In this document: positions 40,847-59,722 of the stretch, one piece after another
Position numbering within the stretch: the first letter of the stretch is position 1
Layout: each line of letters begins with the position of its first letter
From: a virus
UHGV virus genome: UHGV-1558314
Reading direction: 5' to 3' (one strand)
DNA length: 64,000 nt
Notes under the pieces: generated by a model
The model's input: the letters and a program-made list of their open reading frames with translations, nothing else
What the model was told of the DNA's origin: nothing
Databases searched by the model: none
Program-made: the position numbers and the translations under genes

Positions 40847-40886
40847 TTTATGATATTGTTAAGATATCTACAAAAAGCAATGCACT

Positions 40887-41183
40887 CTACAAAAAGCAAT
40901 GCACCATAAAACCCAAGAACATAATTATTGCAGGCTGCATGATGCAATACATAAAGAACTGTGCAGCAATCGGCAATTCATTGAACTTGTTGACTGTGTC
41001 ATGATTCTTGAACAATGCCAGTACAAATGATATCCCAATTGCATGCTTAAGCGATAACGCAGTCAATGCGGGCCACACAGGCATCACAAACCACTCCCAG
41101 AAGTTCATAATAATGCAGCCATTCAGAATATAGCCTAACAGCATGAACATAATGCATGCAACAGTTGTCAGAAAGTTTTTCAT
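40887..41183 (-). CDS. small membrane protein (3 TM; holin-like candidate)
   Basis: ORF track; three hydrophobic segments in a 98-aa protein. Confidence 0.4.
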   Translation of the reverse strand: MKNFLTTVACIMFMLLGYILNGCIIMNFWEWFVMPVWPALTALSLKHAIGISFVLALFKNHDTVNKFNELPIAAQFFMYCIMQPAIIMFLGFMVHCFL

Positions 41184-43587: not shown

Positions 43588-43696
43588 ATATATAATATGT
43601 CAATAAATTTCACATATAAAGTCTTTTCGCTTATGAAAACTACTCAACTCTGGTTTGAACGCCAGCAGTCAATCGCGGGGGGGCTCTTCGTGACAC
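43588..43696. repeat. left arm of a near-perfect inverted repeat of about 109 bp
   Basis: tatataatatgtcaataaatttcacatataaagtcttttcgcttatgaaaactactcaactctggtttgaacgccagcagtcaatcgcgggggggctcttcgtgacac; its reverse complement occurs at 46611-46721 with one small indel. Confidence 0.85.
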
Positions 43697-44368: not shown

Positions 44369-44425
44369 ATGAAAACTCCACAATTTTGGTTTGAGCGTCA
44401 ACAAGGGCTAGCGGGGGGGCTCTAA
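44369..44425 (+). other. leader ORF copy B (MKTPQFWFERQQGLAGGL, 18 aa) with G7 tract
   Basis: Diverged at nucleotide level from the IR copy but conserved as peptide. Stop immediately after the G tract, while the gene B frame opens immediately before it. Confidence 0.5.
44413..44419 (+). repeat. homopolymeric G7 tract
   Basis: gcgggggggctc read directly. Confidence 0.9.
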
Positions 44426-44462
44426 ATTAGTCTACCTGCAACTTGTTATTGGCGACGCTTCG

Positions 44463-44891: not shown

Positions 44892-44975
44892 CTGACAGAT
44901 GCATCACATATAAGCAATGCTCCACTGAGAAATCTCAGTGGAGCATTTTTTGTGCTGTTTGGCAATTTTAGACAT

Positions 44976-45386
44976 CTATATGCTATAGTATGCCCTATTG
45001 ACAAGCAACACATAGTCACCACACAGTAATGCAGCGTACGACATCATGCAATCATCTTGCGGCGCACTGACATCTGCATATCCTTTTGCGTACATAACCA
45101 TGTTGTTGTGCACAAAGTCAACTTTAGCATTTGCATAAATTGCATCAGTGCCACGGTCAACTATAAATGATTCACCGCGTTCAAGCGCATTTGCATTAAT
45201 TGTCACGGTAGATGTACCAGCATTAATGCTGTACAATGTATTTGGCACAGCATTAATGCTGGTACTTGATACCGTCATAAACTTAGCAGCAAATATGCTA
45301 TCAACCAAATCACCAAATTGTGCTGAGGTGGGTTTATCTCCGGTTTCAAAATACGTTTTGAGTACCGAACGTGTTTGAACTGCCAT
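44976..45386 (-). CDS. tail-fibre-like protein (cassette gene D, 136 aa)
   Basis: N-terminal LKTYFETGDKPTSAQFGDLVDSIF resembles a motif I recall from phage tail fibre/collar proteins. Not searched. Confidence 0.45.
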   Translation of the reverse strand: MAVQTRSVLKTYFETGDKPTSAQFGDLVDSIFAAKFMTVSSTSINAVPNTLYSINAGTSTVTINANALERGESFIVDRGTDAIYANAKVDFVHNNMVMYAKGYADVSAPQDDCMMSYAALLCGDYVLLVNRAYYSI

Positions 45387-45404
45387 ATGTTTCGATGTTT
45401 TAAG

Positions 45405-45587
45405 TTATGCAATGTGACATGAAAGCAACACTGCAAACTTTTCATCGAATGCAATGTCACCTACGTTATAACAAGAGATTGAGCCAGATATGTGACCCCC
45501 CCAATTCAATTTGAATGTCATAAAGCTTATGAGTTTGTAAATGTTTGTTTTGTTTATATATTTTGACTGCCCATATGTACATATCAA
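45405..45587 (-). other. small upstream ORF (60 aa) containing a G7 tract, in frame with and 6 codons upstream of gene D
   Basis: ORF track; ...FKLNWGGHISG... spans the G7 tract. Confidence 0.3.
45496..45502 (-). repeat. homopolymeric G7 tract (C7 on plus strand)
   Basis: gtgaccccccccaatt read directly. Confidence 0.9.
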
Positions 45588-45658
45588 AACAACATCTTAG
45601 TTGTTTTGCATCTTGCATCAAAACAACATCTTAGTTGTTTTGCATCTTGCATCAAAAC
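45583..45658. repeat. tandem direct repeat (34-bp unit, 2.2 copies), each unit containing a 9-bp-stem hairpin
   Basis: atcaaaacaacatcttagttgttttgcatcttgc repeated; CAAAACAAC / GTTGTTTTG inverted repeat inside each unit. Confidence 0.8.
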
Positions 45659-45895
45659 TCATAGGCATTGCATTCAAAGATGAAGATTTTACAGCAGACA
45701 TTGCACTTGATAACGCGTCATTTTATGATGGCCAAACTGCATGGCTAACTGGAAAGCTTCTGGCAGCATTGTGTTAAGTATAAAACAGTTACATTGAAAG
45801 CTAACACAACAGTAAACATCGCCATTTAATGCACATCAAAAACTCCACTGAACAATTAAGTTCAGTGGAGTTTTTGATGTGTAGTGTGCAAAATA

Positions 45896-46610: not shown

Positions 46611-46721
46611 GTGTCACGAAGAGCCCCCCCGCGATTGACTGCTGGCGTTCAAACCAGAGTTGAGTAGTTTTCATAAGCGAAAAGACTTTTTGTATGTGAA
46701 ATTTATTGACATATTATATAT
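46611..46721. repeat. right arm of the inverted repeat (reverse complement of 43588-43696)
   Basis: Direct comparison of both arms; includes the leader ORF start (ATG at 46674, minus) and a G7 tract. Confidence 0.85.
46624..46630 (-). repeat. homopolymeric G7 tract (C7 on plus strand)
   Basis: gagcccccccgcg read directly. Confidence 0.9.
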
Positions 46722-46822: not shown

Positions 46823-47437
46823 TTACGATACAGTCCACGGGCAGTTTGCGGTAACCGTAACCGTAACGGCAGGAGTACCGGCCTGAGGAATCGTGATTTC
46901 CTGCTTGTCGAGTACCAGCGTCGGGTCACCAGCAGCCTGAACGATTGCAATCTGAGCAGTCTGGGCACCGTTGGCAGTTACCAAAATCGATGTCGTGCGC
47001 TCGTTAATCGTCAAGTTGGCAGGAATGTCAAGCTCAATGCTGAAAGCAAACTCGGCGTTGGCACCAGGGTCACCAGTGATTGCTACGCCATTGTTGGTTT
47101 CTACACCAGCAACTGCGTACTTTTTAGGCAGTTCGATAACAAACTCGCCGCCCTCAACGATGCTGAACGTCAGCTTCGATGAGTTAGATACACCGGTTAC
47201 GGTAAGAGTACCGCCAGCTTTAGGAGCTGACATCTCTGAGCCGTTGTCAAATGACACGAACTCAGCCTTTGCAGTCTGCTGTACATTGTACGTTGAAGGC
47301 GCTGCAATACCAGCACCCTGAACGGTTACAACACCAGTACGTGCAATACGACCAGTGTGGGCGTCAGCAGAGTTGGAAATTGAACCATTACCCGAACCAG
47401 ATGTCGGGCTAAGTTTCAACCATGCGGGTTTAGCCAT
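46823..47437 (-). CDS. BACON/Ig-like domain protein (204 aa)
   Basis: N-terminus MAKPAWLKLSPTSGSGNGSISNSADAHTGRIARTGVVTV fits the BACON pattern (W-L...SP-x-SG-x-G...R-x-G-x-VTV) and ends ...VTVTANCPWTVS. Codon usage is G/C-richer than its neighbours. Confidence 0.5.
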   Translation of the reverse strand: MAKPAWLKLSPTSGSGNGSISNSADAHTGRIARTGVVTVQGAGIAAPSTYNVQQTAKAEFVSFDNGSEMSAPKAGGTLTVTGVSNSSKLTFSIVEGGEFVIELPKKYAVAGVETNNGVAITGDPGANAEFAFSIELDIPANLTINERTTSILVTANGAQTAQIAIVQAAGDPTLVLDKQEITIPQAGTPAVTVTVTANCPWTVS

Positions 47438-47495: not shown

Positions 47496-48095
47496 TCAAA
47501 GAATTTTCCAAGAAGCGTTTGATGTCAAATTCATTGTGATTGTCGTGCCATCATCATCAACTGTCACAGATTCTGTACTCAGCACAAGAGTTGCTGCAGC
47601 AGCTGCTTGAGTAATGCTAACATTCAATGATTTGCCACCAGGAGTTGTCACTGTCAATACAAATGATTTCTGTTCAATTGTCAAATTTTGCGGTATTGTA
47701 GCTTCAATTGACCATGCAAACTTTGCAATATATCCAGGGTCATTTGCAATTGCTGTGTCATTTGTTGCAGCGACGCCATTTGCTGTGTACGCAGTCGGAA
47801 TGCTAAGATTCGGATTTGTAGTTGCAAACTTAAGTTTTGCTGCGTTAGACTCACCAGAAACAACAATTTTTGTGGTTGCCGCAGAAACATTGTATGATGT
47901 TGTGCCAGATACAAATTCTGCAAGAGCAGCTTGGTTGATTGTTGCTTGCTTTGTAACTGTTGGTGTGGTCTTCGTTTGCACAGTCGCAATTGTGCTACGA
48001 ATGCCTCTGCCGGTATGAGCTCCTGCAGTAAATGCCAGGATATCATTACCCTCACCAGACATTGGTGAACACTGTGCCCATATAGCTTTTGCCAT
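47496..48095 (-). CDS. BACON/Ig-like domain protein (199 aa), paralog
   Basis: N-terminus MAKAIWAQCSPMSGEGNDILAFTAGAHTGRGIRSTIATV parallels 46823..47437 and 48167..52495. Confidence 0.5.
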   Translation of the reverse strand: MAKAIWAQCSPMSGEGNDILAFTAGAHTGRGIRSTIATVQTKTTPTVTKQATINQAALAEFVSGTTSYNVSAATTKIVVSGESNAAKLKFATTNPNLSIPTAYTANGVAATNDTAIANDPGYIAKFAWSIEATIPQNLTIEQKSFVLTVTTPGGKSLNVSITQAAAAATLVLSTESVTVDDDGTTITMNLTSNASWKIL

Positions 48096-48166: not shown

Positions 48167-51100
48167 TTATCGAACAAGGAATGATGTACCAACAACCATA
48201 TTCGGGATTGCCAAGCCATTGCCAGACTGGCTTACTGCAACTGTGCCACTTGTGTAGCCTGACAATGCAGCAGTAATTGTTGCCGACCTGCTGTTATCTG
48301 AACCCCAGTTGTTTGCAGCTGACAATGTCGAACCGCTGATTGTGAATGCACCATTGTTCGATGAGTACGTTGGAGTAACCGCAGCATCTGATGTTGTAGA
48401 CTGACCTGTCGTGTACTTTGTGACAGTTCGACCTGTCGTAGACAATGTTGCAGTGCCACCAGCAGCCCCAAAGCTTGTAACAGTTGAGCTGACAATCAGA
48501 GTCTTCGTAGTCGAAGTCACACTGTTGGCTTCCTGTGTAGCAGTGATTGCTTTTGAGCCAGTTTGACCATTCAACGCAACCGTCATATTGACTGTAGCGG
48601 TTCTTGCAGAACCAGCAGTTGTGCCACGATTTGCAGCAGTCAATGAACCGGTTGTACTACTGTTAAGCGTAAAGCCAGTAGTTGTAGCCATACTGTATGA
48701 AATTGTACCGCCAGATGTAATAGTAGTTTTTGAACCACTTGTGTACGTTGCTGTCTGCGAGTATGCTGGCGTGCCTGTTGGAGTCTTTGTTGCACCTGCT
48801 GCAGCAAATGTTGCATATGATGTTGCTGTAGTAACTGTGACTGCGCTGTATGATACACTGTTAGCTGCTTGATAAACATCAAGAGCTTTTGTAGCAGTCT
48901 TAGACCCTTCACCAGTAGCAGTTGCAGTCAAAGTGCCAATCTTTGTACGAGCTTTGACTGTAGTGCCAAGCGATGATGCGCTGACTTTTGTGCTATACGC
49001 AATGCTAACTGAACCTGGCCTTGTGCTGCCAGACGTATATGTAATTGTCTGTGATGCACTGATGCCAGACATTGATGCAACTTCACCGCCACCAGCAGGA
49101 ATATCTGACACAGTTCCACCAGAAATTGTAACCGCGCCATATGTCGTAATTGCATTTGCAGCTTGGTACACATCGACTGCTTTTGTTCCAGATTTGCCAT
49201 TGACTGTTACTGTAACAGTAGATGTTGTAATCTTTGTGCGGGCTTTAGCAGTAGTGCCAAGTGAACTACCAGACACTGCGCCAGTAGACGTTGTTACACC
49301 AGTGCCAGACCATGATTTGCTGCCACCAGACGTAACTGTCTGTGTTGAGCCACTTGACCACATAACTGATTGACTGAATGACACTGAAGGCGTAACTGAG
49401 CCACCCTTTGCAGGAACATCGCTATAAGTCATCGAAACTGTGGGCGTACCATATGTAGCAGCATTAGCATTTTGAGATGCAGTAGCAGTCTTTGTTCCAC
49501 TGATGGCTTTTGTGCCTGCAGCATTGTATGACGCAGTAGGCGTCCATGTAGCTGTTACAGTCTTTGTGACTGTCAGCGATGTAGTTGCGCCACTTGCAGT
49601 AGTGCCTTTTGATGATGCGGTTATAGCACCAGTAGATGTATTGAGTGCAGTGAACAATCCTGATGCGCCTGGCCAACTATATGATGTTGTAGTTGACAAT
49701 GAACCATACGTAGATGCTGGCGCAGTAGTTGAAGTACTGCCACTACTAAAATGGTATGTTACTGTGTTTGCACCATTTGACGGTGTAGATGTTCCGCCAC
49801 CTGCAGCAATTGCAGGATATGACATCGAACCAACTGCAATATTGAGTGCAGTCACATAGTTGCCTGCCTGATAAATCGTGGCAGACTTGCTGGCAGATTT
49901 GCCATTCATTGTGACTTTAACAGTCAGTGTGCCTGCAGTAGTCTGGTTAGATATTGCGGTGTCTTTTGATTGCGCAGTGACTGTTGACGTATACTCAATT
50001 GTTCCGCCGCTTGTCAGTGTTTCTGTCGTCTTTTCACCAGTAGCATATGTCGTAGTTTTGACCTGCGAGTAAGTTACTGTGCCAGATTTTACAGAACCTC
50101 CGCTTGCTGCAATGATAGTTGCAGACGGCGTCAAGTTAACTGTGATATCGCTATATGTAACTGTGCCAGCAGATTGAGCTGCTTGATAAACATCTGCAGC
50201 TTTTGATGCAGACTTGCCATTGAGTGCTACTGTGACAGTCAATGTGCCAATCTTTGTTCGTGGCTTAACTGTTGTGCCAAGTGATGATGCAGTGATACCT
50301 GCTGCTGGACTGTATGAAATTGTTGCACCAGTAGTGATGTTCTGTGTTGAAGTTGATGTGTATGTTGCAGTCTGCGAATATGACACATTGCCGCTCTTAA
50401 TTGTACCACCAGTTACAGGAATATCTGCTACAGTGAAGCTTGAAATTGTAACTGCGCCATATGACACAGTGTTTGCAACTTGCTTGACTGTGCAAGAACC
50501 AGTTTTTGTAACACCGCCCTCAGTATATGAGCCAGAAATTGTAATGCTGCGTTCTGCGCCTACGACTGTTGTGCGATTTGCTGCAGTTACTGTAGCAGTC
50601 GACAATGTAAAGCCAGTTGCTGAACCGCTAAGTGTTGCAGATACTGCAGCAGATGACGTTGAGCCTGATGCATATGTGTATGACGCTGTTGAAGTGATTG
50701 TAGTTGAACCGCCACCAGCTGCCAATGTTGCAGCGCCAGGTGTCAATGTCAAGCCATTCAGCGTCTTTGAGTTTGCAGTTTGTGTTGCAGTAGCAGTTTT
50801 TGTAGCAGACTTGCCATTGATTGCTACCGTAACTGTGACAGCATTTGAAGCATCAGTAGAGCCTACATATGATGTGCCCATTGACGTTACAGTCAATGCG
50901 CCACTTGTCGTATTCAATGTCCAGCGTGACTTAGCAGTCATTGCATAAGACAATGTAGCGCCACTTGTCAATGTGCCACCTGAGCCAGCTACGCCATTCC
51001 AAGTCCAAACTTGTGAATATGAAACAGTTGGGTTTGATGTACCACCAGCAGGAGCAATGTTAGCATATGAGAATGTTCCAATGACAGGCGTTGCATAGAC

Positions 51101-52495
51101 TTTAGCACCTGCAGCTTGGTTGAACGTAATATCTTTTGATGCAGACTTACCATTTGCAGTGACTGTCAAGGTGACAACAAACCCATTACGTGCAACAGTA
51201 GAATTGTTGTTTGTCACTGTGACATTCAAGCCAGACAAGCTGTAGCCTGTTGCAGCAGTTTTGACGGCAGCAGTCCATATGCCGCCTGACGTGTTACTAT
51301 CAGTTGAGCCGCTGCTGTATGTCATTGACTGCGTAAATGTTGCAGATGCATTAGCTGCAACAGTTTGACCTGCTACTGCAAGAGCAACTGGTGTTGTCTT
51401 TGTAATGACTGGTGTGCCGTATGTAATGCTGTTGGCTGCTTGTGTAATTGATACAGTAGCAGTTGCATTGCCATATGACGCTGTGCCGCTAAATGACCGA
51501 GCATCACCGACAGTCTTACCACGATTTGCAGATGTTACAGAATTTGCAGATATTGTAAAGCCTGTTGCAGTGCCTGTAATTGTTGGCTTGACATTTGTTT
51601 CAGTAGATGTAACAACACCGTTCCATGTCACAGTGTACGTACCAGTGATGGTTGATGTTCCACCTGCTGCAGTATGACTTGTTGAATATGTGTTCAAAGC
51701 AAGTTTGTACACAACTGAACCTGCAGCTTGTGAGCATTTAACGGTCTTCGATAATTCATGACCACTTACAGTCAGTGTTGGTGTAACTGCTGCAGTTGAC
51801 GTGTTGTTCGGTGTATTGACAGTGATTGTTGCAGGACCTGTGCCAGATGCTTTTGAGACTGACCAACCTGCAGGTACGCCCGAAATTGTCCATGCAAAGT
51901 CAGGATTACAAGAAATTGCGAATGTCTTCGATTCACCCTTTGCAACAAATGACAAAGTTTCTGGTGATACTGCCAATGTTGCACTTGCACCAGCTTGATT
52001 TACTGTAAATGTTGCAGACTTGCCACCAGGCGTTGACAATGTGAAAGTGAATGCCTTTGCAGCGATTGCAGTATGTGCAGCAATCTGCACTCGTACAATG
52101 ACTTCAAATTCTGCATTGACACCAGGGTCATTGTCAAAATTTGTATTAAGCGCATAATCTTTGCTTGCAACAGTTACGCCAAGCACTGTGCCACTTGCAG
52201 TACCGCCAGTACTGCCAAGCACAAGTTTTTGTGCATTTGTGACACATTTCAATGTTGCAATAGTGCCACCATTTGACGCAATGTTTGTAGATGCAACTGT
52301 AGCTCGTATAGTTTCACCAGGAGACTCTTGCAATACTGCACAGTTTTCAGTTACTACTGGTGAACCTGTAGTTGTTTGCGCAGTAAAGCTGCCAGACCTG
52401 TTATTTCGACCAGTATGCACAGATGCTTTGACAGACAACTGTGAGTTGCCTGTGCCAACATCAGGTGTAACTGTCAACCAAGTAGGCTTTGCCAT
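48167..52495 (-). CDS. giant Ser/Thr/Gly-rich fibre or adhesin-like protein (1442 aa) with N-terminal BACON-like domain and about eight tandem Ig-like repeats
   Basis: N-terminus MAKPTWLTVTPDVGTGNSQLSVKASVHTGRNNRSGSF; repeated T[L/V]TV-x-x-NGKS-x-[ST]K...YQAAN modules of about 100 aa. Plus-strand ORFs here are antisense artefacts. Confidence 0.65.
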   Translation of the reverse strand: MAKPTWLTVTPDVGTGNSQLSVKASVHTGRNNRSGSFTAQTTTGSPVVTENCAVLQESPGETIRATVASTNIASNGGTIATLKCVTNAQKLVLGSTGGTASGTVLGVTVASKDYALNTNFDNDPGVNAEFEVIVRVQIAAHTAIAAKAFTFTLSTPGGKSATFTVNQAGASATLAVSPETLSFVAKGESKTFAISCNPDFAWTISGVPAGWSVSKASGTGPATITVNTPNNTSTAAVTPTLTVSGHELSKTVKCSQAAGSVVYKLALNTYSTSHTAAGGTSTITGTYTVTWNGVVTSTETNVKPTITGTATGFTISANSVTSANRGKTVGDARSFSGTASYGNATATVSITQAANSITYGTPVITKTTPVALAVAGQTVAANASATFTQSMTYSSGSTDSNTSGGIWTAAVKTAATGYSLSGLNVTVTNNNSTVARNGFVVTLTVTANGKSASKDITFNQAAGAKVYATPVIGTFSYANIAPAGGTSNPTVSYSQVWTWNGVAGSGGTLTSGATLSYAMTAKSRWTLNTTSGALTVTSMGTSYVGSTDASNAVTVTVAINGKSATKTATATQTANSKTLNGLTLTPGAATLAAGGGSTTITSTASYTYASGSTSSAAVSATLSGSATGFTLSTATVTAANRTTVVGAERSITISGSYTEGGVTKTGSCTVKQVANTVSYGAVTISSFTVADIPVTGGTIKSGNVSYSQTATYTSTSTQNITTGATISYSPAAGITASSLGTTVKPRTKIGTLTVTVALNGKSASKAADVYQAAQSAGTVTYSDITVNLTPSATIIAASGGSVKSGTVTYSQVKTTTYATGEKTTETLTSGGTIEYTSTVTAQSKDTAISNQTTAGTLTVKVTMNGKSASKSATIYQAGNYVTALNIAVGSMSYPAIAAGGGTSTPSNGANTVTYHFSSGSTSTTAPASTYGSLSTTTSYSWPGASGLFTALNTSTGAITASSKGTTASGATTSLTVTKTVTATWTPTASYNAAGTKAISGTKTATASQNANAATYGTPTVSMTYSDVPAKGGSVTPSVSFSQSVMWSSGSTQTVTSGGSKSWSGTGVTTSTGAVSGSSLGTTAKARTKITTSTVTVTVNGKSGTKAVDVYQAANAITTYGAVTISGGTVSDIPAGGGEVASMSGISASQTITYTSGSTRPGSVSIAYSTKVSASSLGTTVKARTKIGTLTATATGEGSKTATKALDVYQAANSVSYSAVTVTTATSYATFAAAGATKTPTGTPAYSQTATYTSGSKTTITSGGTISYSMATTTGFTLNSSTTGSLTAANRGTTAGSARTATVNMTVALNGQTGSKAITATQEANSVTSTTKTLIVSSTVTSFGAAGGTATLSTTGRTVTKYTTGQSTTSDAAVTPTYSSNNGAFTISGSTLSAANNWGSDNSRSATITAALSGYTSGTVAVSQSGNGLAIPNMVVGTSFLVR

Positions 52496-59621: not shown

Positions 59622-59648
59622 ATCAGTTAATTTGTTTGTATATGTATT

Positions 59649-59722
59649 CGAATGTGCACACATGAGAATAGGTCTCTTCGAATGTGCACATATGAGAATA
59701 AGTCTCTTCGAATATGCGCACA
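59649..59722. repeat. tandem direct repeat (30-bp unit, about 2.5 copies) with TGTGCACA palindromes
   Basis: cgaatgtgcacacatgagaataggtctctt / cgaatgtgcacatatgagaataagtctctt / cgaatatgcgcaca; related atttgtgcgcatatc at 59611-59625. Confidence 0.8.

What the first reader, a model, noticed from the sequence alone, without database searches (positions are those of the whole stretch)
45405..45587. Fourth G7 tract inside a short ORF just upstream of the tail-fibre-like gene D
The G7 tract at 45496-45502 (minus sense AATTGGGGGGGTCAC) lies in a 60-codon ORF that ends 6 codons before the ATG of gene D, in the same frame. The arrangement differs from A, B and C because no shift is needed, but it is another homopolymer within about 100 nt of a cassette gene start and could modulate transcription or translation by slippage.
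Basis: seen in the sequence. Interest (0 to 1): 0.5.

Follow-up and report, generated by a model that had tools for sequence, protein, structure and literature searches.

The report
Hypervariable poly-G tract before phage fibre gene
A run of seven G's just upstream of a small tail-fibre-like gene in a large uncultured phage is one of several mutation-prone "switch" tracts: its length ranges from 7 to 11 in related phages, it sits in a short upstream reading frame, and it probably tunes how much of the fibre protein is made.

Summary
G7 lies at 45496-45502 (minus sense), inside the mechanical 60-codon ORF 45405-45587. That ORF ends 18 nt before gene D's ATG, in the same frame. The tract is not chance: GG/CC are strongly avoided here, so 0.04 G/C runs of 7 or more are expected in 64 kb, and 4 occur, all within 3 kb.

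In 11 independent assemblies of related phages the flanks are nearly invariant. The tract reads 7, 8, 9, 9, 10 (five times), an interrupted 10, and 11.

The tract belongs to a portable leader (ATG, four codons, AAY-TGG-Gn). Elsewhere in this lineage that leader opens real cassette genes, which are ON or OFF according to tract length. At D the leader is only an upstream ORF. Lengths of 3n+1 give 38-39 codons that run through a conserved predicted hairpin clamping D's start. Other lengths stop 74-79 nt upstream of the ATG.

My best reading, inferred and not shown, is a length-dependent translational-coupling switch or tuner for a tail-fibre/adaptor-like protein. The main rival is a hypermutable relic with no effect on D.

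The closest precedent is the hypermutable polyG tracts of Campylobacter phages. I rate this a new variant of a known kind, of moderate interest.

The parts
45496..45502 (-). Poly-G tract, G7 in this genome. The orthologous tract is G8, G9, G9, G10 (five times), GGGGGAGGGG and G11 in ten other assemblies.
45405..45521 (-). Leader upstream ORF ('type-2 leader'): ATG at 45521, MTFKLNWGG..., 38 codons, then TAA at 45407-45405. It lies in frame with gene D and ends 18 nt before D's ATG.
   Evidence: It has the same ATG(-19)/AAY-TGG-Gn architecture as the leaders that open the C' (165 aa) and F' ORFs in the relative.
45405..45587 (-). This is a mechanical ORF and its 5' third is probably not translated.
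45462..45468 (-). Early stop codons of the two other frames, in UAACGUAG: UAA (45468-45466) for 3n+2 tracts and UAG (45464-45462) for 3n tracts. They lie 3-9 nt 5' of the predicted structure.
45376..45459 (-). Predicted RNA structure: a long inner hairpin (UUCGAUG...CAUCGAA) ending 5 nt before D's AUG, plus an outer helix pairing with D codons 2-4. The last 62 nt before the ATG are identical in the 8 contigs aligned and in the 3 added later by inspection.
   Evidence: MFE -25.2 kcal/mol, z -2.4; alignment fold -29.8 kcal/mol; no covariation because the sequence is invariant
44976..45386 (-). Gene D, 136 aa. It has an invariant N-terminal 33 aa (MAVQTRSVLKTYFETGDKPTSAQFGDL.DS) and a variable beta-sandwich body. 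It is a recombinant: the 5' end of the first D-family gene (g1) joined to the body of the second (g2).
   Evidence: structure and fold matches
45583..45658 (.). Perfect 34-nt tandem repeat, 2.2 copies, with 21-nt core TTTTGATGCAAGATGCAAAAC. It lies upstream of the leader. Copy number and spacer vary in relatives (3.4 copies in L044). Unique to this spot in the window.
45832..45881 (-). Perfect 22-bp hairpin followed by a T-run after gene A. It looks like a terminator that isolates the D transcription unit from upstream.
   Evidence: I5
44916..44947 (.). Bidirectional terminator-like hairpin between the convergent genes D and C.
46624..46630 (-). Sister tract of cassette A, in a type-1 leader (MKTTQLWFERQQSIAGG, ATG at 46674). 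G7 is OFF; G8 would give 259 aa.
43677..43683 (+). Sister tract of cassette B (type-1 leader, ATG at 43633). G7 is OFF; G8 would give 233 aa. ON alleles exist elsewhere: pure G8 in L049 and interrupted GGGGGTGG in L046.
44413..44419 (+). Sister tract of cassette C (type-1 leader variant, ATG at 44369). G7 is OFF; G6 or G9 would give 173-174 aa.

Best explanation
The G7 is a hypermutable poly-G repeat, prone to slipped-strand mispairing. It belongs to a conserved, portable 5' leader module (ATG, four codons, AAY-TGG-Gn) used by a family of variable virion-surface cassette genes. These lie next to the BACON-domain fibre genes of a roughly 175-kb phage of a Bacteroidota-type lineage. In sister cassettes the tract joins leader to body and switches the gene ON or OFF. 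In front of the D family the leader is a separate upstream ORF, and the tract sets its frame. With 3n+1 G's (G7 here; G10 is the mode elsewhere), ribosomes starting at the leader ATG translate 38-39 codons. They pass through the conserved hairpin that clamps D's initiation region and terminate 18 nt before D's AUG, which favours unfolding and re-initiation (coupled, high expression). With 3n or 3n+2 G's they stop 74-79 nt upstream, at the foot of the structure, giving weaker or different coupling. Tract length would thus stochastically switch or tune production of the D-family tail-fibre/adaptor-like protein. Shown: the tract, its non-random occurrence, its length polymorphism, the frame consequences, the shared leader architecture and the fold of D. 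Inferred: translation of the upstream ORF, the RNA structure, and any effect on D. The confidence given is for the full coupling mechanism; that the tract is a genuine hypermutable element of this cassette family I hold at about 0.9.
For: (1) Non-random occurrence: 4 G/C7 runs observed against 0.04 expected, all at the 5' ends of cassette genes. (2) Length polymorphism with conserved flanks in 11 independent samples: 7, 8, 9, 9, 10 (five times), interrupted 10, and 11. (3) The same leader architecture opens real ORFs in the relative: C' is in frame for 165 aa at G7, and F' is in frame at G9. The leader ATG is therefore a credible translation start. (4) Sister tracts act at the DNA level: a pure G8 ON allele of B occurs in L049, and a locked ON allele (GGGGGTGG) in L046. 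(5) Seven of 11 samples have the 3n+1 frame, including the window's G7 (= G10 minus 3) and the one interrupted, stabilised allele in L048. Binomial P=0.039 against 1/3, not corrected for shared ancestry. (6) The 3n+1 frame stays open to the same TAA in all 11 contigs, while the peptide is not conserved (2 synonymous and 5 non-synonymous changes among the 8 aligned), as expected for a regulatory upstream ORF. (7) A stable predicted structure embeds D's start. The second D-family gene in relatives has an analogous hairpin (z -4.9), with the upstream gene's stop codon abutting a helix that pairs with its AUG. D-family starts therefore look built for coupling. (8) D folds like tailspike or fibre N-terminal anchor and adaptor domains, such as CBA120 TSP4 N-terminus, T4 gp9/gp10 and Mtd N-terminal-domain proteins.
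Against: There is no expression data of any kind. The transcription start is unknown, because no promoter could be placed by sigma-70 or Bacteroidota consensus. The RNA structure has no covariation support, since the sequence is invariant; one or two pairs are broken in single sequences. The early stops of the other two frames sit just 5' of the structure, a geometry like that between g1 and g2. All three frames might therefore couple, and tract length might matter little. The enrichment of the 3n+1 frame may simply reflect a shared ancestral G10. An 18-nt gap between stop and start is longer than in typical tight coupling (my own knowledge, not tested here). Some +/-1 differences between assemblies could be homopolymer consensus noise.
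Confidence: 0.45

Rival explanations
1. Hypermutable relic. The leader and tract are left over from a cassette whose body was replaced by a D-family gene with its own start codon. The tract still slips because it is long, but its length has no effect on D.
For: D has its own ATG, conserved as the start in distant homologues. No tract length fuses the leader to D. The locus is visibly rearranged by recombination: the window's D is a g1/g2 chimera, and leaders are swapped between cassettes. The uORF peptide is not conserved. All three frames occur in nature.
Against: An unselected G9-G11 run should decay by interruption or contraction. Instead, 10 of 11 samples keep a pure tract of at least 7 G's in a genome that otherwise purges G/C runs. 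The leader ATG, its context and the open 3n+1 frame are kept in all 11. The single interrupted allele is in the 3n+1 frame.
Confidence: 0.3
2. Transcriptional device. The tract lies within or next to the D promoter, or acts as an RNA-polymerase slippage or pause site. Its length would change promoter geometry relative to the upstream 34-nt repeats, or change transcript yield, as with homopolymer-controlled promoters in Bordetella fim or Neisseria opc/porA (those examples are from my own knowledge).
For: The tract lies in a 450-nt gene-free region bounded by a terminator. A unique, copy-number-variable tandem repeat that could bind a regulator lies about 80 nt upstream. Tract lengths vary in single-nucleotide steps, as they would for a spacer.
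Against: No -35/-10 or -33/-7 pair brackets the tract. The only sigma-70-like match (45587-45560) lies upstream of the leader ATG, and promoter-like hits are not enriched over shuffles. There is no TAnnTTTG box. The identical leader architecture is demonstrably coding in C' and F', which places the tract inside the transcript there.
Confidence: 0.13
3. Recombination junction. The G tract mainly marks, or promotes, the crossover point at which conserved leaders are exchanged between variable cassette bodies. Length variation would be a by-product.
For: Leader swaps have their homology break at the tract. The window's C (type-1 leader) and C' in the relative (type-2 leader) share sequence only from the G tract onward. 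L045 carries an A/B-type leader on a C body, joined at the tract. A 134-nt, 97% inverted repeat of the A and B leaders flanks the cassette block.
Against: At D itself the sequence is conserved on both sides of the tract in all 11 contigs; the variable junction lies about 200 nt further on, inside D (codons 22-30). No recombinase domain was found in the neighbouring ORFs scanned, and no inverted arrangement was seen in any contig. A boundary between homology and non-homology at the tract is expected anyway if the tract ends the conserved leader.
Confidence: 0.06
4. Chance homopolymer or sequencing/assembly artefact.
For: Homopolymers are error-prone, and +/-1 differences between assemblies could be noise.
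Against: Only 0.0003 such tracts are expected in this region. The tract is present at the same position in 11 independent assemblies from different sources, with lengths spanning 7-11.
Confidence: 0.01

Closest known systems
Hypermutable polyG tracts in receptor-binding-protein genes of Campylobacter Fletchervirus phages (Sorensen et al. 2021, Cell Rep 35:109214; cited in PMC12823448, PMC10877375 and PMC8696038; the paper itself is not held)
   Same: This is also a phage, not a host, carrying several poly-G tracts in virion-surface or fibre-type genes. Tract length varies and sets ON/OFF states, creating phenotypic sub-populations. The sister cassettes A, B, C, F' and E' fit this directly.
   Different: There is no sequence relationship: nothing in the INPHARED phage collection matches this region. 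The nearest cultured relatives are Chryseobacterium and Tenacibaculum jumbo phages at about 26% amino-acid identity. Here the tracts sit in short conserved leader modules at the extreme 5' end. The D tract is not in the fibre gene at all but in an upstream ORF 109 nt before it.
Simple-sequence-repeat contingency loci of bacteria (Campylobacter, Neisseria, Haemophilus, Bordetella homopolymeric tracts; e.g. PMC1891110, PMC5084427, PMC2831843)
   Same: It is a homopolymer far longer than the genome background. It lies near the 5' end of surface-structure genes. It shows length polymorphism with conserved flanks, and locked alleles arise by interruption.
   Different: It is carried on a virus. For D, the frame that switches is that of an upstream ORF, so the effect on the main gene must be indirect (coupling) rather than a simple frameshift or promoter-spacer change.
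Upstream-ORF / leader-peptide translational coupling, in which a terminating ribosome unfolds the downstream start (general bacterial and phage mechanism; my own knowledge)
   Same: There is a short upstream ORF with a conserved start and an unconserved peptide. Its stop lies close to the next AUG. A stable structure is predicted over the downstream initiation region. The same geometry occurs between the tandem D-family genes in relatives.
   Different: Which stop codon is used is set by a hypermutable DNA repeat, not by a physiological signal. I know of no described case of a homopolymer-controlled upstream ORF in a phage, and two literature searches found none.
Invertible or shuffled tail-fibre segments (Mu Gin, P1 Cin, shufflons) and diversity-generating retroelements
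   Same: The biological goal is the same: alternative fibre or receptor-binding variants encoded in one phage genome. An inverted repeat flanks the cassette block. D's fold resembles proteins annotated with the Mtd N-terminal domain.
   Different: No recombinase or reverse transcriptase was detected in the neighbouring ORFs scanned. No alternative orientation was seen in 11 contigs. Variation is by repeat length, not inversion or mutagenic retrohoming.

Membership tests
SSR (homopolymer) phase-variable / contingency locus | Uninterrupted homopolymer much longer than expected from genome composition, in or just upstream of a gene | tested here: met
   G7 lies 109 nt before D's ATG. Only 0.04 runs >=7 are expected per 64 kb and 4 are observed, all at cassette 5' ends.
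SSR (homopolymer) phase-variable / contingency locus | Tract-length polymorphism among close relatives, with conserved flanks | tested here: met
   Eleven samples read 7, 8, 9, 9, 10 (five times), interrupted 10, and 11. The flanks are about 97-100% identical.
SSR (homopolymer) phase-variable / contingency locus | Length change alters expression of the associated gene (frame or promoter spacing) | tested here: inconclusive
   Length changes the frame and stop position of the upstream ORF (38-39 codons against 18-20) but never D's own frame. For sister cassettes the frame switch is direct, and ON alleles exist.
SSR (homopolymer) phase-variable / contingency locus | High-frequency, reversible length heterogeneity within one population | not testable with these tools
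   Only assembled consensus contigs are available, with no reads.
Phage polyG-controlled receptor-binding proteins (Fletchervirus type) | PolyG tract inside the coding sequence of the fibre/RBP gene | tested here: not met
   For D the tract is in a separate upstream ORF, and D starts at its own ATG. The feature is met for the sister cassettes A, B and C.
Phage polyG-controlled receptor-binding proteins (Fletchervirus type) | The controlled gene encodes a receptor-binding or tail-fibre protein | tested here: inconclusive
   The model has pLDDT 86.6. Foldseek matches N-terminal anchor and adaptor domains of tailspikes and baseplate fibre connectors at E 1e-4 to 3e-6 and TM about 0.5. There are no Pfam or PHROG hits. 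Receptor binding itself was not shown.
Phage polyG-controlled receptor-binding proteins (Fletchervirus type) | Evolutionary relationship to Campylobacter phages | tested here: not met
   No DNA or protein match to any record in the phage collection for this region. The nearest relatives infect Bacteroidota. The resemblance is analogy, not homology.
Regulatory upstream ORF with translational coupling | Conserved start codon and context; open frame kept; peptide sequence not conserved | tested here: met
   The ATG and its context are identical in all 11 contigs. The 3n+1 frame is open to the same TAA in all. Substitutions among the 8 aligned are 2 synonymous and 5 non-synonymous.
Regulatory upstream ORF with translational coupling | Stop codon close to the downstream start, and a structure occluding that start | tested here: inconclusive
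   The stop lies 18 nt before the AUG in the 3n+1 frame. The predicted structure has energy -25 to -30 kcal/mol and z -2.4, but no covariation.
Regulatory upstream ORF with translational coupling | Downstream translation depends on upstream ORF translation | not testable with these tools
   This needs reporter fusions or ribosome profiling.
Promoter-spacer homopolymer switch | Tract lies between promoter elements, or between an activator site and the promoter | tested here: inconclusive
   No hexamer pair brackets the tract, and there is no Bacteroidota -7 box. However, the promoter consensus of this phage is unknown.
Programmed -1 frameshift / transcriptional slippage site | A slippery run gives access to a long ORF in another frame | tested here: not met
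   At D both alternative frames close after 9-11 codons. The sister type-1 tracts do form a G_GGG_GGG heptamer leading into long -1 ORFs, so this reading remains open for A and B only.
Site-specific invertible fibre segment (Gin/Cin/shufflon) | Inverted-repeat sites plus an adjacent recombinase, with both orientations found | tested here: not met
   An inverted repeat is present. No recombinase domain was found in the neighbouring ORFs scanned, and gene order and orientation are the same in all contigs.

The most novel reading that the evidence does not exclude
A large gut or environmental Bacteroidota-type phage runs a multi-locus poly-G 'phasotype' system: 4 tracts in this window and at least 7 in a relative, built from two portable leader modules. 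One tract works by a mechanism not described before. A hypermutable repeat sets the frame of an upstream ORF, which in turn gates translation of a tail-fibre/adaptor operon through a conserved RNA clamp. Virions from one burst would then differ stochastically in fibre composition and host range.
Probability: 0.3. Interest if true: 0.75.

Novelty: new variant of a known kind. Interest (0 to 1): 0.55.

Why it matters
Repeat-driven phase variation is textbook for bacterial surface genes. In phages it has so far been documented essentially only for Campylobacter phages. Finding a whole set of poly-G-controlled cassettes in an unrelated, uncultured, roughly 175-kb phage lineage suggests the strategy is more widespread. 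These cassettes have conserved plug-in leaders, naturally occurring ON, OFF and locked alleles, and one tract placed in an upstream ORF. The strategy may help phages cope with hosts, such as Bacteroidota, that themselves phase-vary their surfaces. It also has a practical side. Such tracts break assemblies and create apparent pseudogenes, so annotation pipelines will systematically miss these genes. The D tract in particular offers a simple, testable model for a mutational switch acting through translational coupling.

Tried and rejected
- **Phage record searches.** A DNA search (blastn) of the cassette region and a protein search (tblastn) with a 518-aa ORF elsewhere in the window found nothing in annotated phage records.
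- **Domain scans.** Pfam and PHROGs gave nothing for cassettes A-D.
- **Metagenome scans.** Two scans with conserved leader blocks found nothing.
- **Genome-collection scans.** Two scans, with the leader block and the type-1 leader, found nothing, so there is no host clue.
- **Viral contig collection.** It holds only one close relative.
- **Distant D-like genes.** Thirty-one other phages with D-like N-termini have no upstream G tract, so the feature is specific to this lineage.
- **Rfam.** Only sub-threshold chance hits, mostly on the terminator hairpin.
- **Promoter consensus scans.** Neither the sigma-70 scan nor the Bacteroidota TAnnTTTG scan was informative.
- **Local hairpin at the tract.** The tract does not form a meaningful hairpin with its own flanks (z +0.7).
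- **Rejected readings.**
  - Chance occurrence.
  - Assembly artefact.
  - Fusion of the leader to D by slippage; both other frames contain stops.
  - TAA read-through as an N-terminal extension; homologues start at D's ATG.
  - An invertase system; no recombinase was found and no flipped arrangement was seen.
- **Not available.** The Sorensen 2021 paper is not held, so its details are cited only through papers that cite it.

Full report
**1. Observation**

Read on the minus strand, the region is ...AAGCTTTATGACATTCAAATTGAATTGGGGGGGTCACATATCTGG.... The G7 occupies 45502->45496. Three-frame translation shows the ORF ending in TAA, then six sense codons (LKTSKH), then D's ATG in the same frame.

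In the whole 64-kb window there are only four G/C runs of 6 or more. All are 7 long, all lie between 43677 and 46630, and each is G-rich in the sense of the gene that follows it.

The genome avoids GG and CC: P(G|G)=0.075 and P(C|C)=0.122. A first-order model therefore expects 0.04 such runs per 64 kb (Poisson P about 1e-7 for four). It expects 0.0003 in D's 510-nt upstream region. Outside the cassette block there is a single G5 and nothing longer. An independent Logan assembly, 100% identical over 1946 nt, carries the same G7s.

**2. Context: a block of poly-G-led cassette genes**

Three of the tracts (A at 46624-46630 on the minus strand; B at 43677-43683 and C at 44413-44419 on the plus strand) lie in codons 16-18 of a conserved leader, MKTTQLWFERQQSIAGG ('type 1', with its ATG 44 nt before the tract). 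The leaders of A and B, with their upstream DNA, form a 134-nt, 97% inverted repeat (43588-43696 / 46611-46721).

In this genome all three are out of frame with their bodies. A and B need G8, and C needs G6 or G9.

The block lies directly after three BACON-domain proteins, of 204, 199 and 1442 aa. The window has no close relative among annotated phages. Its SbcC-like protein is about 26% identical to those of Chryseobacterium and Tenacibaculum jumbo phages. This points to a large phage of a Bacteroidota-type lineage.

**3. Relatives**

One 174.6-kb IMG/VR contig is about 93-95% identical across the region. The protein database holds 43 D-family proteins. Contigs were fetched for twelve of them, counting the window's own D.

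In the IMG/VR relative the tracts differ from the window. A' is G6, B' is G7, and D' is G10. There are also extra cassettes: E' (G8), F' (G9), and X' (G7, elsewhere in the genome).

Two cassettes there are in frame. C' carries a different, short leader (MNITMNWGG, 165 aa at G7), and so does F' (MQIPRNWGG, G9). This defines a 'type-2' leader: ATG, four codons, AAY, TGG, Gn, with the ATG 19 nt before the tract. The sequence in front of gene D (ATG ACA TTC AAA TTG AAT TGG GGG GG, MTFKLNWGG) is a type-2 leader.

ON alleles of a type-1 cassette also exist. L049 has a pure G8 B allele, called as 234 aa. L046 has an interrupted GGGGGTGG allele with one continuous 233-aa ORF. Leader-body fusion is therefore the real product, and the tracts act as DNA-level switches.

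About 24 type-1 tracts were examined and only these two were ON. G_GGG_GGG in the leader frame is a perfect -1 slippery heptamer. Programmed slippage therefore remains an additional possibility for A and B.

**4. The D tract across samples**

In 11 independent samples the leader is nearly invariant, from the tandem repeats to D's codon 20. The tract itself varies:
- G7: window
- G8: L046
- G9: L043, L045
- G10: L001, L041, L044, L047, L049
- GGGGGAGGGG: L048
- G11: L038

With 3n+1 G's the leader ORF is 38-39 codons and ends 18 nt before the D-family ATG. With 3n+2 it is 18-19 codons, leaving a 79-nt gap. With 3n it is 20 codons, leaving a 74-nt gap. No length joins it to D.

Seven of the 11 samples are 3n+1. 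These include the window's G7 (= G10 minus 3) and the single interrupted, stabilised allele. The binomial P is 0.039 against 1/3, uncorrected for shared ancestry.

Substitutions inside the upstream ORF are mostly non-synonymous. None closes the 3n+1 frame. The 62 nt before the ATG are identical in all contigs. Thirty-one more distant phages with D-like N-termini have no such tract.

**5. What is downstream**

In relatives the leader precedes a first D-family gene (g1), whose body occurs in at least four versions. After a 75-nt spacer comes a second gene (g2), which has its own upstream region and no tract.

The window's D is 100% g1 over nt 1-65 and 98-100% g2 from nt 90 onward. It is a g1/g2 recombinant that lost the g1 body, so a g2-type body now sits directly behind the leader.

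The family has an invariant 33-aa N-terminus and a variable body. The AlphaFold model (pLDDT 86.6) has two N-terminal helices and a beta-sandwich. Its best fold matches are N-terminal anchor and adaptor parts of tailspikes and baseplate fibre connectors: CBA120 TSP4 residues 1-250, T4 gp9 and gp10, the KP1 baseplate and a Pa223 capsid spike. Among viral models it matches proteins annotated as Mtd N-terminal domain or tail fibre. 'Tail-fibre-like' is thus supported at the fold level, with modest TM scores of about 0.5.

**6. Mechanism**

D is its own transcription unit. A perfect 22-bp hairpin with a T-run follows gene A at 45832-45881. A bidirectional terminator lies at 44916-44947.

Upstream of the leader is a perfect 34-nt tandem repeat (45583-45658). 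Its 21-nt core is unique in the window, and its copy number varies among relatives.

Folding of the RNA between the tract and D predicts two elements. One is a long hairpin ending 5 nt before the AUG. The other is an outer helix pairing with codons 2-4. The energies are -25.2 kcal/mol (z -2.4) for the single sequence and -29.8 kcal/mol for the alignment. There is no covariation, because the sequence does not vary.

The spacer before g2 in relatives has an analogous, stronger hairpin (z -4.9). There, g1's stop codon abuts a helix that pairs with g2's AUG. D-family starts therefore look designed for translational coupling to an upstream ORF, and for g1/D that ORF is the leader.

My best explanation is that tract length decides whether leader ribosomes traverse the clamp and stop 18 nt from D's AUG (3n+1), or stop at its foot (3n, 3n+2). 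That would switch or tune D translation.

This step is inferred. The early stops mimic the g1-to-g2 geometry, so all three frames might couple to some degree. No promoter could be placed, either by sigma-70 consensus (not enriched over shuffles) or by the Bacteroidota -7 box (absent here, and present before only 2 of 47 ORFs). No Rfam family matches.

**7. Rivals**

- **Hypermutable relic with no effect on D.** This is favoured by D's own start and by the recombination history of the locus. It is disfavoured by the maintenance of a pure long tract, the leader ATG and the open frame in a genome that purges G runs.
- **Transcriptional spacer or slippage device.** This is possible because the promoter is unknown. 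However, the same leader is coding in C' and F'.
- **Recombination junction.** Leader swaps do break at the tract in C versus C' and in L045. At D, however, both flanks are conserved, and the variable joint lies inside D.
- **Chance or artefact.** Excluded.

**8. Comparison with known systems, and novelty**

The closest described system is the set of hypermutable polyG tracts in receptor-binding-protein genes of Campylobacter Fletchervirus phages (Sorensen et al. 2021, as cited). The sister cassettes here work like that system but are unrelated in sequence and host lineage. They also use conserved plug-in leaders.

The D tract fails one defining feature of that system, because it is not inside the fibre gene. 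Instead it sits in an upstream ORF. Literature searches found no description of poly-G switches in Bacteroidota or gut phages, nor of a repeat-controlled upstream ORF in a phage. Absence from that library is not proof of absence.

My verdict is a new variant of a known kind, with interest 0.55. The hypervariability is well supported, and the specific mechanism at D is plausible but untested.

Noticed in passing
window 43633-43683 (+), 44369-44419 (+), 46624-46674 (-): Cassettes A, B and C share a 17-codon leader (MKTTQLWFERQQSIAGG) ending in G7, and all three are out of frame with their bodies here. Across about 24 such tracts in relatives only two are ON (pure G8 in L049; interrupted GGGGGTGG in L046). 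In the leader frame the tract is a perfect G_GGG_GGG -1 slippery heptamer, so programmed ribosomal or transcriptional slippage may add to DNA-level switching.
   Followed up: partly
window 43588-43696 and 46611-46721: A 134-nt, 97% inverted repeat (the promoter-proximal DNA plus leaders of A and B) brackets the 2.9-kb cassette block. No recombinase domain was found in the neighbouring ORFs scanned, and no flipped arrangement was seen in the related contigs. Many assemblies break at this repeat.
   Followed up: partly
whole window: GG and CC dinucleotides are strongly depleted (P(G|G)=0.075, P(C|C)=0.122, against a base frequency of about 0.2). Outside the cassette block the longest G/C run is a single G5. 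The cause is unknown; candidates are restriction avoidance or selection against slippage-prone runs.
   Followed up: partly
window 45583-45658: A perfect 34-nt tandem repeat (2.2 copies) with a 21-nt core, TTTTGATGCAAGATGCAAAAC, unique in the window. Relatives have 3-5 copies with 28- or 34-nt periods. In relatives it lies between the divergent D and F' leaders, so it is a candidate regulator-binding or promoter element.
   Followed up: partly
window 44976-45386 vs L037 110-1020: The window's gene D is a recombinant: nt 1-65 are identical to the first D-family gene (g1) of relatives, and nt 90-411 are 98-100% identical to the second (g2). A deletion between the conserved N-terminal coding regions collapsed two genes into one.
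   Followed up: yes
window 45387-45448 and the orthologous stretch in 10 contigs: The 62 nt immediately before D's ATG are 100% identical in all 11 samples, including the hairpin loop, although neighbouring sequence varies. This is more conservation than an RNA structure alone would require, and it is unexplained.
   Followed up: partly
L045 4420-4515 (and the same spacer in L037, L038, L043, L046): The 75-nt spacer between tandem D-family genes folds into a strong hairpin (-24.5 kcal/mol, z -4.9). The upstream gene's stop codon abuts a helix that pairs with the downstream AUG, a textbook translational-coupling geometry.
   Followed up: partly
L034 11442-11449 (-), L001 3575-3583 (-), L033 728-734 (+): The 174.6-kb relative has further poly-G cassettes absent from the window. 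E' (ATGAC-G8, more than 300 aa if G6 or G9) and F' (MQIPRNWGG, G9-G11 across samples, divergent from the D leader) lie in the cassette region. X' is a type-1 cassette about 69 kb away in the genome.
   Followed up: partly
window C (44369-44430) vs L034 9650-9700; L045 5440-5530: Leaders are exchanged between cassettes with the homology break exactly at the G tract. The C body carries a type-1 leader here, a type-2 leader in the relative, and an A/B-type leader in L045, where the B body is missing. Cassettes are gained and lost by leader-leader recombination.
   Followed up: partly
window 46823-47437, 47496-48095, 48167-52495 (all -): Three consecutive proteins start with a BACON-like domain (MAKP.WL...). 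The 1442-aa protein is a long Thr/Ser/Ala-rich repeat protein, probably a fibre or decoration protein preceding the cassette block.
   Followed up: no
window 59647-59722 and 40867-40904: Two other near-perfect tandem repeats: 30 nt with 2.5 copies, and 19 nt with 2 copies. Significance unknown.
   Followed up: no
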